A stretch of DNA of 64,000 bases, taken from the NCBI GenBank assembly GCA_965203275.1, contig OZ241865.1:2336001-2400000 (forward strand). The letters run 5' to 3'. The notes under the pieces are model-generated. The model worked only from the letters and a program-made list of their open reading frames with translations, ran no database searches and was not told where the DNA came from. Origin of the DNA: Bdellovibrionales bacterium. GTDB lineage: Bacteria; Bdellovibrionota; Bdellovibrionia; Bdellovibrionales; JAUICD01. The number at the start of each line of letters is the position of its first letter. Position 1 is the first letter of the stretch. Below are positions 18,262 to 56,820 of this stretch, piece by piece. A program made the translations under genes and the position numbers.

Positions 18262-18420
18262 TCTTAACATTTCCCTCAAAATAAATCATGCCTCTGGCAT
18301 GTTTTCTGGCAGTTAGCCCGACGGCTACCGCCGTCGATCAAAGGCTAACTGCCTCAAAAGTCCGTTTACTTTTAGTAGGAAGGATCTCCTTGCTTTTAAC
18401 ACAATGTTAGGGAAACAAGA
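18262..18420. repeat. Structured ~150-bp palindromic repeat (chimeric copy)
   Basis: Stems ggcagttagcc/ggctaactgcc, cgacggc/gccgtcg, catgcc/ggcatg. Confidence 0.9.
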
Positions 18421-18444
18421 TATTCGCTTCATCCTTGCCTGTCT

Positions 18445-18580
18445 GTTTGATGCCAGGGTGCCAGATCACGGATCCCGGAAAAATATCCTTTCATTTCTTT
18501 ATACCATGTTAAGGAAAAAGTCAATTCTGGGATCTGATGCCGGGTTGCCGGATCCCGGATCCCGGATCCCGGATAAATAC
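18445..18580. repeat. (GGATCCC)n heptamer repeat family element
   Basis: gccggatcccggatcccggatcccggataaat; related copies near 48960, 50070, 50685, 54850, 56628. Confidence 0.8.
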
Positions 18581-18647
18581 CAACAAGAGGTTTGTTTTTT
18601 AGGAATTTTTTCTAAAAGATGGGAAAAGGGTATTTGAAAATTGGAAA

Positions 18648-19130
18648 TTCAGTGATTTCAGCTAGTTTGGTTCACTCAAAATAAATCATGCCTCTGGCAT
18701 GTTTTCTGGCAGTTAGCCCGACGACTATCGTCGTCGATCAAAGGCTAACTGCCTAGAAAATCCATTTATTTTGAGTAGGGGAGAATCCTTTCGTTTTTTA
18801 ACACAATGTTAAGGGAACAAGAAGTTCGTTTCTCTGGATTTCTTTGAAAAGGTAGAGAATTTGGGTTTAAAAATTAGATTTTCAGTGATTTCAGCTAGTT
18901 TGGTTCACTCAAAATAAATCATGCCTCTGGCATGTTTTCTGGCAGTTAGCCCGACGACTATCGTCGTCGATCAAAGGCTAACTGCCTAGAAAATCCATTT
19001 ATTTTGAGTAGGGGAGAATCCTTTCGTTTTTTAACACAATGTTAAGGGAACAAGAAGTTCGTTTCTCTGGATTTCTTTGAAAAGGTAGAGAATTTGGGTT
19101 TAAAAATTAGATTTTCAGTGATTTCAGCTA
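18648..19130. repeat. Exact 233-bp tandem duplication, each unit with one structured repeat
   Basis: ttcagtgatttcagcta at 18648, 18881 and 19114. Confidence 0.9.
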
Positions 19131-19529
19131 CTTAATACTGTGACTTTTGTATAAAAGTTACAGTATTAAGTGTTTGTAATTGTTAGACTTTTTTAGGTCA
19201 ACTTTAGAAATTTCTAATTTTTCGTCTAACACAATTCTTATCGTTTATTATGACATAAAACTTTATATTTTTGTTAAAAAAAATCAAAAAAAGTGACATT
19301 TTGTATCAAAAAGAATCACTTTTTTGAATTTTTGTATCATCTTGAAACACTTTACTAATCTTAAAGACATAAGATAAGAAAAATAAGTAGCGATTTTTAA
19401 TTCTTGTTTTATAACTTTTGCTTTGTTTGATTTTTCAAAACAATTTTCTTGCAAAAATTTGCCTGTTTTTTGCTCTTTCAAATTGTAACTTTTATACAAA
19501 AGTTACAGTGCTAAGTCATTGAAATCACT
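19117..19529. promoter_or_regulatory. Segment bounded by 46-bp inverted repeats upstream of the pilin
   Basis: 19117-19162 versus reverse complement of 19484-19529: 40/46 identical, inner 20 bp perfect. Confidence 0.7.
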
Positions 19530-19589
19530 AGGTCGTTTAGGTTTGTTTCACTAAAAGTGGTTGTTTCACTTTGAATGAAACAGAAGGAA

Positions 19590-19774
19590 CTTTTTCCTTA
19601 ACATGGTGTTAAGAGACAAGGAGATCCTTTCTACTAAAAGTAAACGGACTTTTGAGGTAGCCAGCCTTTGATCGACGGCGAAAGCCGTCGGGCTGGCTAT
19701 CCAAAAGTAGCCAGAGGCTAGTTTACTTTTAGTGAACCAGAGGTCAGTTCATTTTGAGTGAAATGTTAAGGAAA
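19590..19774. repeat. Structured palindromic repeat (reverse orientation) with an extra stacked end
   Basis: actaaaagtaaac/gtttacttttagt, cgacggc-gaaa-gccgtcg, tagcc-aga-ggcta; termini tttccttaacat/atgttaaggaaa. Confidence 0.9.
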
Positions 19775-19795
19775 TAAGGTGTTTAAAAGGATATT

Positions 19796-53913: not shown

Positions 53914-54501
53914 TTAGTCGTCGAGGTCGAGTAGTCCTAATTCATTCCTTACCACGCCATTTGCAATACTGGCGCGAATAATACGTATAAGATTCCAAAG
54001 AGTAGTGAGAGACTCCTTTGAAAATACGAGAACACTTCTCAATCCTTCAGGGTCTTTCTTCTGCAAGTATTGGTACGAGATACCTGCTACAATTGAGGCA
54101 CCTAATGAAACAGCCCCTGTTCTTGTCATAAGACGCCTGAGATTTCTATAGAAAGCCTTTACAGCAATTACACTAGCAGTAGCCCCTACTCCTAAAGCAG
54201 CAAAAGTCCTTATACTCGCTGTTGATAACATAACACTGAACGCACCATCATCAGTTTGTGTAGCTGTACTCAGATCACTTTCTAATTCTGTCAATGCTCC
54301 TCTTATAAACTGAGCTTCATCTTGAGTGACAGGTTCTTCATGTTGATCTAATTGAGCTACAGTTCTCTCTTGGGCTTTAGGGGTTTTTGCACTTTTACAA
54401 TTTTGATGATGATCGTGTTTGGCTACTGTCTCTGGAGCAGTAGTGCATCCCACTGATATAGTCACCAAAGCAAATAATAAAAAACTTAAATAATATTTCA
54501 T
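53914..54501 (-). CDS. Lipoprotein (paralogue 2 of 49139..49720)
   Basis: First 33 aa identical; C-terminal part diverged. Confidence 0.8.
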   Translation of the reverse strand: MKYYLSFLLFALVTISVGCTTAPETVAKHDHHQNCKSAKTPKAQERTVAQLDQHEEPVTQDEAQFIRGALTELESDLSTATQTDDGAFSVMLSTASIRTFAALGVGATASVIAVKAFYRNLRRLMTRTGAVSLGASIVAGISYQYLQKKDPEGLRSVLVFSKESLTTLWNLIRIIRASIANGVVRNELGLLDLDD

Positions 54502-54515
54502 GATTGACTCCTTTT

Positions 54516-54780
54516 TTAATTTATTGTTAGTTTATTGGTTTTTAAAATTGAATTGACAGCAATAAAACTGTCATACAGTAAGCTTCTCTGAAGCTTGCTG
54601 TAAGTTTTAAATAGCTTAAAGCTTATGAAGTATCTGGGATTAAATGAATAAATTGTGATGAGAAGCACTTTGTTAAAGTGTATGTGCTGGCAAAACCCTG
54701 TATTGCTAGAGAGAGAGAGAGAGAGAGAGAGAGAGAGAGAGAGAAATAAACCTTTCAATGGATTGTGATGTTATGAACAT
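54516..54780 (-). pseudogene. Leader ORF copy 2, frameshifted by (TC)18
   Basis: ATG 54780 to stop 54516 spans 265 nt, not a multiple of 3. Confidence 0.45.
54708..54744. repeat. A(GA)18 microsatellite
   Basis: Direct reading. Confidence 0.95.
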
Positions 54781-54974
54781 GAATAAGTCCTTCCTTTTGT
54801 TTTTTTAACATTGTGTTAAGGGAACAATTCCTTCTAATGCCTGAATACCGGTTTGCCGGATCCCGGATAAAGTATATTTAAATACCCTTTCATTACTATT
54901 ATCGGCTCAAAATATTGAATACTTTTATCAACTTTTAATTTTGTCTAAAATTTAGTCTTTTGTCTTATGATCCC

Positions 54975-55230
54975 TAACATTTCACTCAAAGTGAACTGGC
55001 CTCTGGCCACTTTTGGACAATGACCATTTTGCCAATGGTGAAAAAAGTGAAATAAACATCTTGTTTCCTTAACATCGTGTAAAGAGACGAGAGGATCCTT
55101 CCTACTAAAAATAAACGGATTTTTGAGGCAATCAGCCTTTGATCGACGGCGAGAGCCGTCGGGCTGATTGCCCAAAAACAGCCAGAGGCTGGTTTATTTT
55201 TAGTGAAATGGACCACTTTTAGTGAAATGG
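54975..55230. repeat. Structured repeat cluster (partial forward plus full reverse copy)
   Basis: actaaaaataaac/gtttatttttagt, ggcaatcagcc/ggctgattgcc, cgacggc-gaga-gccgtcg. Confidence 0.9.
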
Positions 55231-55231
55231 A

Positions 55232-55915
55232 TCACTTTGAGTGAGAAAGAAGATTTTCTCTACAGGCCATTAAATTTGCTTCAGGTGACCCTTGAGAGTT
55301 ATAATTTTCTATTGCATTGGCCACTGAGAATTGATGATGGATATTGGCATACTGTGTAGCACTCCAACCGTTATCGTTGATCACATTTGTTCTTGCACCT
55401 ACACTTAATAAAAGACATATTGTTTGCTTATGAGTCATAAGAACAGCTAGCATCAAAGCTGTATTGCCATAGATGTCTGTGTCATTAATCGTTTGATGCC
55501 CACCAGATTGTAAAATCCATGATATAACGTCAATATCATCACTTTGGTCTGTAGCCACCATTAAAGGTGTTTCTTCATACTTGGAAATAGTAAAGTTAAG
55601 ATCAGCACCAAAATCTAAGAGTAATCGAATGATTTTCTTTTTATCATTTTCTGTCTTACAACGTTTACCATAAAGAGCTATTTGCAAAAGTCGATTGCCA
55701 GAAAGATCTACCAAATCAGGGCTTTCACCATAAACAAGTGTAAGTTCTACTCCTTTAGTATTACACAATTCTACAGACCACAATAAGGGTGAGTGTTGGG
55801 TATTGTTGATTGTATGTATTCGATTATTTTCATAAAAAGAATATCCAAAGGAAGGGATAAGGGTCATCAACAGAACATAAATAAAAAGCCTTGAAGTTTT
55901 GTAAAATATCATCAT
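55232..55915 (-). CDS. Exported ankyrin-repeat protein
   Basis: Signal peptide, ETPLMVA, GNTALMLA, GADLN. Confidence 0.85.
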   Translation of the reverse strand: MMIFYKTSRLFIYVLLMTLIPSFGYSFYENNRIHTINNTQHSPLLWSVELCNTKGVELTLVYGESPDLVDLSGNRLLQIALYGKRCKTENDKKKIIRLLLDFGADLNFTISKYEETPLMVATDQSDDIDVISWILQSGGHQTINDTDIYGNTALMLAVLMTHKQTICLLLSVGARTNVINDNGWSATQYANIHHQFSVANAIENYNSQGSPEANLMACRENLLSHSK

Positions 55916-55952
55916 ATTTTAACATTACCTGATAAAAATTAATTAGACAAGC

Positions 55953-56820
55953 TTTGGTTCACTCAAAATGCATAAATTTTTGAGGCAATCAGCCTTTGAT
56001 CGACGGCGGTAGCCGTCGGGCTAACTGGTATTAGAAAGATATTTTCCTTAACATCATGTTAAAAGAGGAAAGGATCCTTTCTACTCAAAGTGAACAGGCT
56101 TTTGAGACAATGACCATTTTGTCAAAGGCGAAAGCCTTTGCGGTCATTGTCCAAAAGTGACCAGAGGTCAGTTCACTTTGAGTGAAACAGAGGCTGGTTT
56201 ACTTTTAGTGAACCAACTCCTCCAACCTGCCTCCGCCTCCCACTCATAGTATTCTTCATTTTTTTGAGAGTTACGCAGAATCTAAAAGAGAATAAAAAAA
56301 CAACTAGCTTGTTTCCTTAACATGGGGTAAAGAGATGAAGAGATCCTTCTTCCTAAAATTGAACAGGTGTAAAAAGGAACCTTTTCCTTAACATGGTGTC
56401 AAGAAACGAAGAGATCCTCTCTACTAAAAGTAAACGGACTTTTGAGACATTGCTCTTTTTGGACAGCGATAGCTGTCAGAGCAATGTCCAAAAGTAGCCA
56501 GAGGCTAGTTTACTTTTAGTGAAACAAACCACTTTTAGTGAAACAACTCCTTAACATGATGATTTGAGAGTGAAGCATCTTGCTTTTTCCTTTACATGAT
56601 GTTATAAGCTAGAAAGGATTCTCTTTCCAGGATCCGGGATCTGGCAACCCGGGAAGCAGGTGTAAAAAGGAACTTTTTCCTTAACATGGTGTCAAAAAAC
56701 GAAGGGATCCTCCCTACTAAAAGTAAACGGACTTTTGAGACATTGCTCTTTTTAGACAGCGTAAGCTGTCAGAGCAATGTCCAAAAGTAGCCAGAGGCTA
56801 GTTTACTTTTAGTGAAACAA
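55953..56820. repeat. Large cluster of structured repeats (3 full reverse copies, partials, GGATCCC element)
   Basis: Full copies ~56043-56190, ~56381-56527, ~56674-56820. Confidence 0.9.

What the first reader, a model, noticed from the sequence alone, without database searches (positions are those of the whole stretch)
18262..56820. Family of ~150-bp intergenic repeats that conserve a four-helix fold while changing sequence (extensive covariation)
Seen: about 20 full or partial copies in six clusters (18.3-19.8k, 20.6k, 36.8-37.3k, 50.3-51.1k, 55.0-55.2k, 56.0-56.8k). Outer helix P1 is a perfect 13-bp pair with a different sequence per subtype: actaaaagtaaac, actcaaaataaat, actaaaagtggtc, cctaaaattgaac, actcaaaatgagc, actcaaagtgaac, actaaaaataaac. 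P2 also covaries (ggcagttagcc, ggcaatcagcc, ggcgatgacca, ggcattgctct, gacaatgacc). So does P3 (cgacggc, cgacgac, cgatggc, gacagc, caaaggc), capped by c-GNNA-g (GAAA, GGTA, GATA, GAGA, GTAA), and P4 (catgcc, tagcc, tgacc, cacacc, cagcc) around an invariant AGA loop. Two mismatches (copies at ~19.66k and ~50.4k) become G-T/G-U wobbles on the GNNA strand, which points to that strand as functional. A CTTAACA-N3-TGTTAAG hairpin precedes the junction, and some copies have TTTCCTTAACAT/ATGTTAAGGAAA termini. Established: c-GNNA-g caps very stable ssDNA mini-hairpins, and GNRA caps RNA tetraloops. Inference: selection acts on the single-stranded fold, so this may be an undescribed structured RNA or ssDNA mobile element (REP/MITE-like). 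No mobilising enzyme is evident in the window.
Basis: partly seen in the sequence, partly recalled or inferred. Interest (0 to 1): 0.9.

Follow-up and report, generated by a model that had tools for sequence, protein, structure and literature searches.

The report
Self-nesting Y-shaped DNA repeat family
A 150-base non-coding unit that keeps its Y-shaped fold while its sequence changes fills about 6% of this uncultured bacterium's genome, and it spreads by pasting itself into hairpins, often older copies of itself, while deleting a few bases of the target, using an enzyme that has not been found.

Summary
In detail: 12 full copies plus fragments in six clusters, about 670 full copies and 6% of the genome. 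All four helices covary far beyond shuffles (P1 540 of 670 perfect versus 90), and new paired alleles appear in sister-lineage DNA. G·T outnumbers A·C 119 to 41 on the GNNA strand. Two corrections: the CTTAACA-N3-TGTTAAG 'hairpin' does not covary (131 versus 127) and is a sequence box shared with a second repeat family; the apparent terminal repeats are inverted insertions into that box (51 of 669 copies). Insertion is 3'-anchored, leaves no target duplication, replaces about 20 target bases and nests into older copies (38 of 94 versus 12 by chance). GNYA loops, no transcription bias and no reverse transcriptase favour single-stranded DNA over RNA. No Y1, IS110 or RT enzyme is in this genome; a four-helix-bundle gene and Rpn nucleases are linked but also occur without it. 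Found only in one Bdellovibrionales genus. The scan reported this family before in other windows of this genome. Verdict: a new selfish structured repeat with an unexplained insertion chemistry.

The parts
18269..18416 (-). Full copy, chimeric P1; its 3' end is joined into the loop of an older leader box (18258-18272)
18470..18572 (-). Leader stub and heptamer (GGATCC-type) array upstream of the copy
18669..18818 (-). Full copy; first unit of a 233-bp tandem duplication
18902..19051 (-). Full copy; second unit of the tandem duplication
19592..19738 (+). Full copy with one G·T in P2
19736..19777 (+). 26-nt 3' remainder of an older copy of another subtype, ending in an inverted leader, just before a pilin gene
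20614..20721 (+). Leaderless, partly hybrid copy next to a truncated serine-resolvase fragment
36772..36831 (-). Two stacked 26/27-nt 3' remainders of other subtypes, ending in an inverted leader
   Evidence: sequence
36832..36978 (-). Full copy inserted into an older copy
36999..37084 (-). 3'-truncated stub of the older copy
37085..37132 (.). Spacer of a back-to-back doublet; remnant of sister repeat family B (GCTTGCTC core)
37133..37282 (+). Full copy ending in an inverted leader
50308..50334 (-). 27-nt 3' remainder
   Evidence: sequence
50335..50481 (-). Full copy with one G·T in P2
50498..50615 (-). 3'-truncated stub; its P1 type nearly matches the remainder at 50308-50334
50616..50718 (.). 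Family-B spacer, leader box and heptamer array
50719..50864 (+). Full copy
50871..51060 (+). Leaderless copy followed by two 3' remainders
54971..55043 (-). Inverted 3' piece inserted into a leader box
55063..55209 (+). Full copy followed by short 3' remainders
55959..56027 (+). 3'-truncated stub
56042..56214 (+). Full copy plus 26-nt remainder
56215..56300 (+). 3' half of sister repeat family B, leading into a leader box
56308..56525 (+). Stub plus full copy
56675..56818 (+). Full copy behind a heptamer array; its 3' end overlaps the start of the obg reading frame

Best explanation
A non-autonomous selfish element that works as folded single-stranded DNA. Shown: the GNNA strand folds into a three-way junction (13-bp P1; long P2/P3 arm with a T-rich bulge and GNNA cap; short P4 with AGA loop) behind an invariant box TTTCCTTAACAT; copies keep a fixed 3' end at GAAA(C); new copies replace a few to tens of target bases without duplication, often inside older copies, inside the leader box or inside a sister repeat; helix modules are reshuffled, and pairing-compatible versions are the common ones. 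Inferred: a trans-acting nicking and strand-transfer protein reads the fold and the box, copies or releases the strand from its 3' end, and joins that end at a nick in a small-loop hairpin; the 5' end, 10-25 bases upstream of the box, is then joined loosely after trimming of the target; recombination among about 1,400 ends shuffles modules and only those that fold are copied again. The protein is not identified. It is not a recognised Y1, IS110 or RT in this genome; the remaining linked candidates are the four-helix-bundle (IVP) protein and Rpn-type PD-(D/E)XK nucleases.
For: Perfect pairing versus shuffled partners: P1 540/670 v 90, P3 639 v 119, P4 635 v 118, P2 492/669 v 53, outer P2 631 v 218. 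In 52 sister-lineage copies 96.9% of cells pair (79% shuffled, 37-50% slid) and 31 of 40 pairs change on both sides, with P1 alleles outside this genome's nine common ones. 10 P1 and 15 P2 alleles occur in 36 combinations with 6 independent cycles, so modules recombine. Single mispairs: 119 G·T v 41 A·C; at P2 positions 2 and 3 G·T recurs in 21 and 15 haplotypes, A·C in 5 and 4, while the neighbouring monomorphic G-C pair has no G·T. Nesting: left stub and right remainder share P1 type in 38 of 94 cases, permutation mean 12.3, max 27 of 5,000; median loss about 20 bases. 231 of 558 tandem pieces are 26-27 nt and start at the P4 loop; 108 of 1,168 leader boxes are cut at one position by an inverted 3' end. 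18 of 22 simple filled/empty pairs lose 2-49 bases, 4 overlap by 2-3 A's. GNYA loops 227 of 599; no sense bias.
Against: No HUH or other transposase of a tested ssDNA family is in this genome (controls for Y2, Zn_Tnp_IS91 and Rep_1 were silent). Known HUH reactions are precise at both ends, whereas these junctions are fuzzy. The G·T excess sits mostly in P2; P1 shows none (61 v 54 at dimorphic columns), and copies are not independent. Both strands fold almost equally well. Only 38 of 94 flanked cases match, so part of the pieces may be truncated copies, not remainders. A test for 5' joining by homology at the leader was inconclusive. No replichore bias (343 v 326), though the GC skew is too scrambled to judge.
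Confidence: 0.5

Rival explanations
1. An RNA-mediated element (SINE- or retron-repeat-like): the GNNA strand is transcribed, an RT supplied in trans primes at a DNA nick on the RNA's 3' end, and 5' truncation and template jumps give the stacked pieces; the Avd-like IVP protein would be the helper.
For: Fixed 3' end and variable 5' end; target loss without duplication; 15 of 15 IVP genes or fragments called in this genome have an element downstream, 13 in the same sense; IVP is PF05635, the family that holds Avd (recalled); the sister genome G001 has group II intron and retron-like RTs.
Against: No RT in this genome by profile or by tblastn with three relatives' RTs (genome 90% complete). No adenine-biased change in nine IVP copies (A>G 18, T>C 16). 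GNYA loops are common and master alleles use no G·U. No sense bias (27 v 16). None of six intact IVP loci fetched from G001 and G004 has the element directly downstream, and other genomes carry up to 23 IVP matches without it.
Confidence: 0.2
2. No dedicated enzyme: hairpins stall replication, and template switching, arm-to-arm copying and ectopic gene conversion both perfect the stems and spread the unit.
For: No transposase found; sbcD, which would cut such hairpins, is not found in this genome; junctions are fuzzy with microhomology; GC skew is scrambled; sister copies show self-copied 14-nt P4 extensions.
Against: An invariant unpaired box and AGA loop, a strand-specific G·T excess, one fixed 3' end in unique flanks (277 of 669 copies) and outward-facing ends in 105 against 5 mixed clusters all point to a specific reader. 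G001 has sbcD and 286 leader boxes.
Confidence: 0.13
3. Rpn-family PD-(D/E)XK nucleases are the mobilisers: they nick DNA, leave 3'-OH ends and promote RecA-independent joining of the folded strand near their own genes.
For: 37 of 56 Rpn genes or fragments have an element within 200 bases upstream and 35 downstream, against 141 and 172 of 1,468 single-copy genes. PF12784 has 14 matches here, 5 in G001 and none in G002 or G003. PMC5350276 (listing and start of abstract only) links Rpn to RecA-independent transfer.
Against: The elements mostly interrupt these genes at varied sites, as expected of targets; paralogues are not independent; G003 has 16 PF04754 matches and no element; G004 has one PF12784 gene on a contig without it.
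Confidence: 0.1
4. A host-serving RNA element (terminator, stabiliser or regulator) kept by selection on the host.
For: 47 of 141 clusters with close flanking genes lie between convergent genes, against 223 of 1,264 gene pairs overall; only 3,157 of 183,106 repeat bases fall in called genes (the gene caller itself skipped repeat-rich frames).
Against: Copies destroy each other and other genes, show no sense bias, differ tenfold in number between sister genomes and are missing from the rest of the family.
Confidence: 0.07

Closest known systems
REP / BIME / REPIN elements with TnpA-REP (RAYT); PMC3333891, passages read
   Same: Hundreds of intergenic folded units, mosaic clusters, back-to-back doublets (102 leader pairs), one working strand, complementary changes within stems.
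   Different: 150 nt three-way junction instead of a 30-40 nt hairpin; no invariant GTAG 5' of the stem; no Y1 enzyme in the genome; target bases are lost; doublets are nestings into a sister repeat.
IS91 / ISCR rolling-circle elements; PMC13181058, passages read
   Same: Two unequal ends, no target duplication, one fixed end with variable extension at the other; the tail GAAA/GAAC resembles the complement of the GTTC target.
   Different: No Y2 transposase found (controls silent), no fixed target tetranucleotide, and target deletion instead of precise insertion.
Bacillus cereus bcr1 repeat, seen only through the review PMC3184786 (passages)
   Same: Dispersed mobile repeat with a branched fold kept by compensatory changes.
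   Different: bcr1 has 5-bp direct repeats and is described as an RNA structure; this element has no duplication, self-nests and carries a separate leader box.
MITEs (Correia, RUP, Nezha); PMC3184786 passages
   Same: Short, non-coding, high copy, stable fold.
   Different: No terminal inverted repeats, no target duplication, no likeness to the ends of the IS256- and IS1634-type elements of this genome.
Retron msr-msd and the msDNA-like repeats of Nannocystis exedens (Lampson and Rice 1997; title seen in the reference list of PMC6868368 only)
   Same: The opposite strand reads outer 13-bp repeat, short hairpin, long hairpin, like a retron RNA (layout recalled).
   Different: No invariant G after the outer repeat and no RT in the genome.
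Diversity-generating retroelements (Avd; GC-rich target hairpin); PMC3240598, listing only
   Same: An Avd-family gene upstream in this genome; GC-rich hairpin with a GNNA cap.
   Different: No RT, no template/variable repeat pair looked like one, no adenine-specific change.

Membership tests
REP/REPIN-RAYT | Conserved GTAG-type tetranucleotide 5' of the hairpin on the working strand | tested here: not met
   The bases before P1 are a variable pyrimidine run; GTAG occurs only on the other strand, 3' of the stem, and is lost in the CCT subtype
REP/REPIN-RAYT | Y1 HUH transposase gene flanked by the repeats | tested here: not met
   No PF01797 match here (control rang in 6 of 14); the single G001 match has no full copy in its locus
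REP/REPIN-RAYT | Intergenic high copy number and inverted doublets | tested here: met
REP/REPIN-RAYT | Binding and cleavage of the single strand by the enzyme | not testable with these tools
   needs biochemistry
MITE | Terminal inverted repeats | tested here: not met
   Inverted leader at the 3' end in 51 of 669 copies only
MITE | Target site duplication | tested here: not met
   18 of 22 simple pairs lose bases, 4 overlap by 2-3 A's
MITE | Ends shared with a resident IS | tested here: not met
   Flanks of IS256-type, IS1634-type and resolvase elements inspected by eye
IS91/ISCR non-autonomous derivative | Y2 HUH transposase in the genome | tested here: inconclusive
   No match, but controls silent
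IS91/ISCR non-autonomous derivative | Precise insertion next to a fixed tetranucleotide without target loss | tested here: not met
IS91/ISCR non-autonomous derivative | One fixed and one variable end, no duplication | tested here: met
Retron / msDNA repeat | Invariant branching G after the outer repeat | tested here: not met
   Next four bases are TGAC, TAGC, TGGC, CATG, CAGC, CACA or CAAC
Retron / msDNA repeat | Cognate reverse transcriptase | tested here: not met
Diversity-generating retroelement | Adenine-specific mutagenesis | tested here: not met
Diversity-generating retroelement | Avd-family accessory gene | tested here: inconclusive
   PF05635 gene linked here but not in sister loci
Known Rfam RNA family | Match at gathering score | tested here: not met
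   Only a tRNA in the window; best weak match E 0.08, far below its cut-off
Structured ncRNA in general | Discrete transcript | not testable with these tools
   No RNA holder listed

The most novel reading that the evidence does not exclude
A new kind of bacterial mobility: a protein outside the known transposase families (possibly the widespread, function-less four-helix-bundle family or an Rpn nuclease) reads one leader box plus a fold, serves at least two unrelated structured passengers (this element and family B), and pastes them by 3'-anchored, hairpin-loop-targeted replacement.
Probability: 0.28. Interest if true: 0.88.

Novelty: new variant of a known kind. Interest (0 to 1): 0.62.

Why it matters
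How small structured repeats spread in bacteria is settled only in part, even for REPs. This family gives hundreds of natural insertion records in one genome, a fold proven by covariation in two lineages, and a junction signature (fixed 3' end, no duplication, about 20 bases replaced, hairpin loops as targets) that fits no tested enzyme family. The substrate is a 150-base oligonucleotide, so finding the enzyme is directly testable. If the enzyme is the four-helix-bundle protein or Rpn, two very common families would gain a function. If not, it remains an unusually clear case of a repeat that has reshaped a small genome (6-7% of it, scrambled skew, many broken genes).

Tried and rejected
Enzyme searches without a fitting hit in this genome: Y1_Tnp, Y2_Tnp and Zn_Tnp_IS91 (11, 108; controls silent), RVT_1 and tblastn with three relatives' RTs, Rep_1 (109; control silent), Rep_trans, IS110, Ku, GIY-YIG (one long single-copy gene in each of 5 genomes, 41), DUF559 (one short frame, 43), tyrosine integrases (2 matches, not examined further, 76), and a motif scan for HUH that returned 14 unrelated proteins. 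Pure end-to-end template jumping, my first reading, was dropped as the sole cause when 161 of 669 copies showed 3'-truncated stubs on their left and the nesting test passed. IVP as obligate partner was weakened by sister loci and by IVP-rich genomes without the element. The apparent presence in a second genus (G004) was withdrawn: the contig carrying three copies has a ribosomal L2 96% identical to G001, and G004 has a second L2 at 69%; its other two element contigs are 12 and 15 kb and were not tested. An ECF-promoter reading and a dif/XerD reading of the leader (both motifs recalled) fit only one upstream variant or the wrong spacing and were not pursued. Crossover at the leader box: inconclusive. 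RBS enrichment behind 3' ends is weak (21 of 277 against 4%; 106). No RNA holder listed. Laid contigs broke at the repeats and showed no empty site. The first P2 parses (31, 33) had a register error and were replaced. 71 of 741 near-full copies did not parse and were left out; 27 of 49 filled/empty rows were dropped by eye as repeat-in-repeat or tandem cases. Paper searches found no description of this repeat; subscription journals and ISfinder were not searchable, and no supplements were opened.

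
Full report
What is there. The window lies at 2,336,001-2,400,000 of a single-contig 2.57-Mb genome, 35% GC, rated 90% complete. A related record carrying the same repeat is titled Bdellovibrionales bacterium, and a strain a few percent different is in a sponge metagenome run (X7). A covariance model built from 36 copies finds 23 matches in the window, 12 of them full length. Genome-wide a profile finds 741 near-full copies, of which 670 parse, and 1,420 3' ends; the family covers 158,585 bases, 6.2%. Rfam has no match. Four public runs show a several-hundredfold pile-up over the element.

Anatomy, read on the GNNA strand. An invariant box TTTCC(T/C)TAACAT, three free bases, GT-N-AA, a purine linker, GATCC and a pyrimidine run; then P1 (13 bp), an outer P2 (6 bp) with a bulged A, P2 (10-11 bp), a T-rich one-sided bulge, P3 (6-7 bp) capped by GNNA or a five-base variant, P4 (5-6 bp) around AGA, the 3' arm of P1, and a tail GAAA(C)AA whose conservation fades over nine bases.

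Covariation. Perfect Watson-Crick stems against shuffled partners: P1 540 of 670 versus 90, P3 639 versus 119, P4 635 versus 118, P2 492 of 669 versus 53, outer P2 631 versus 218. Shuffling does not remove relatedness, so three further points matter. First, 52 copies from sister-lineage DNA (45 from the record, 7 from G004 contigs) pair at 96.9%, with 31 of 40 pairs changed on both sides, against 37-50% for slid partners (alignment fitted to the model), and they carry paired P1 alleles outside this genome's nine common ones. Second, helix alleles recombine: 10 P1 and 15 P2 alleles in 36 combinations among 372 fully paired copies, with 6 independent cycles. Third, tolerated mispairs are strand-biased: 119 G·T to 41 A·C among single mispairs in 404 distinct cores, 28 to 9 in the sister copies. 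The excess is concentrated at P2 positions 2 and 3, where it recurs in 21 and 15 haplotypes against 5 and 4; the adjacent monomorphic G-C pair shows no G·T, which argues against simple deamination; P1 shows no excess. R-scape could not be run. The leader palindrome fails the same test (131 versus 127): its left half is fixed and its right half drifts, as in a protein-binding site.

DNA or RNA. 227 of 599 GNNA loops have a pyrimidine third base; from general knowledge that suits the sheared G·A cap of DNA mini-hairpins better than RNA GNRA loops. Master alleles contain no G·U pairs. Single-orientation clusters between co-directional genes are 27 sense and 16 antisense (p 0.13). No reverse transcriptase is found. 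Energy alone does not separate strands or molecule types. The case for DNA is therefore moderate, not proven.

How it inserts. Of 669 full copies, 242 are followed by a 5'-truncated piece of another subtype (same P1 type in only 12), 161 are preceded by a 3'-truncated stub, 163 by heptamer arrays, and 51 end in an inverted leader. Where both stub and remainder exist they share P1 type in 38 of 94 cases (permutation mean 12.3, maximum 27) and about 20 bases of the older copy are missing. Remainders peak at 26-27 nt (231 of 558), which starts at the P4 loop. The 5' junction lies 12-32 bases upstream of the box and often carries the tail of a heptamer array. Paralogous empty sites agree: of 49 candidate pairs, 22 were simple insertions by eye; 18 lose 2-49 bases and 4 overlap by 2-3 A's. 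In mixed clusters the 3' ends point outward 105 times and inward 5 times; the 102 back-to-back doublets are two insertions into the arms of a second repeat.

A sister repeat shares the box. Family B, about 65 copies of a 250-base interrupted stem with its own paired allele sets, is followed by the same leader within 135 bases in 50 of 61 cases, has no Rfam match at cut-off, and precedes the element in sister loci too. The box also follows heptamer arrays. It therefore looks like a shared recognition site, not part of one RNA.

The enzyme. None of the tested families fits (see Tried and rejected). Two gene families are linked. A 101-residue four-helix-bundle protein (PF05635) occurs in 9 intact copies framed by heptamer repeats, with 37 of 54 variable coding sites at third positions; 15 of 15 called copies have an element downstream, but the gene is also split by the element, sister loci lack the link, and other genomes hold many such genes without it. 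Rpn nucleases have elements nearby six times more often than single-copy genes but are mostly interrupted, and G003 has 16 without any element. Both look more like favoured targets, and both remain the only candidates in hand.

Range. 3 of 41 relatives by DNA search; leader counts 1,020 here, 286 in G001, 9 in G004, 0 in G002 and G003; at least one G004 contig appears to belong to a G001-like organism. None in 150 sampled phylum genomes, viral contigs, metagenome contigs, plasmids or phages. So far it is a one-genus element.

Comparison and verdict. It works most like REP/REPIN or IS91-type single-strand elements but fails their membership tests, and also those for MITEs, retrons and DGRs. Papers seen: passages of PMC13181058, PMC3333891 and PMC3184786; reference entries in PMC6868368; listings only of PMC3240598, PMC5350276 and PMC10400941. 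Searches found no description of it. Earlier agents of this scan reported the same family from other windows of this genome; their note on stacked heads prompted my nesting test. Added here: the leader is not a helix and is shared with family B, target bases are replaced, doublets are nestings, the second-genus occurrence is doubtful, and the DGR and retron readings fail. I rate it a new variant of a known kind, interest 0.62, with a 28% chance that the underlying chemistry is new.

Noticed in passing
G000:C1:798400-798900 (L139); window fragments 37085-37132, 50616-50660, 56215-56300: Second structured repeat, family B (about 65 copies, 250 bases, conserved internal GAAGTCCTC / GCGGAAGATCT loop, paired allele sets), ending in the same leader box; also in sister loci; no Rfam match.
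   Followed up: partly
window 19117-19530: A further dispersed repeat of about 420 bases bounded by AGTGATTTC / GAAATCACT with internal palindromes, dozens of copies, often before pilin genes.
   Followed up: no
G000:C1:1905607-1905912 (L020) and 8 more intact copies: Four-helix-bundle (PF05635) genes framed by heptamer arrays, under purifying selection, 33 matches in this genome.
   Followed up: yes
L024, L025, L028, L038, L039, L041, L049: In other genomes of the order the same gene family sits as divergent pairs around a near-perfect palindrome, as if made by fold-back duplication.
   Followed up: no
G000 genome-wide; window 47847-48803: 56 Rpn-type nuclease genes and fragments in several subfamilies, many split by the element so that only the small C-terminal part remains.
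   Followed up: partly
G004:C11, C1, C4 (L099-L101): Contig C11 looks mis-binned from a G001-like organism (second ribosomal L2, 96% to G001); C1 and C4 may be too.
   Followed up: partly
L046, L104, L112, L120 and others: Sister-lineage copies extend P4 by one to three 14-base self-complementary units, which suggests fold-back copying.
   Followed up: no
G000 whole genome: Cumulative GC skew has no clear origin or terminus and sbcD was not found; mutS is present.
   Followed up: partly
window 38609-39484: An S1/P1-family single-strand nuclease gene 1.3 kb from a cluster; no link tested.
   Followed up: no
window 20440-20585: 5' fragment of a multi-copy serine resolvase element cut off by element pieces.
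   Followed up: no
window 28142-28433: Six tandem 41-base repeats between a HipA-family gene and a transporter gene.
   Followed up: no
window 1654-8759 and 34958-36762: Two tandem paralogous 1,000-1,200-residue proteins with 51-residue cysteine-rich repeats and no Pfam match for the one scanned; two beta-solenoid repeat genes.
   Followed up: no
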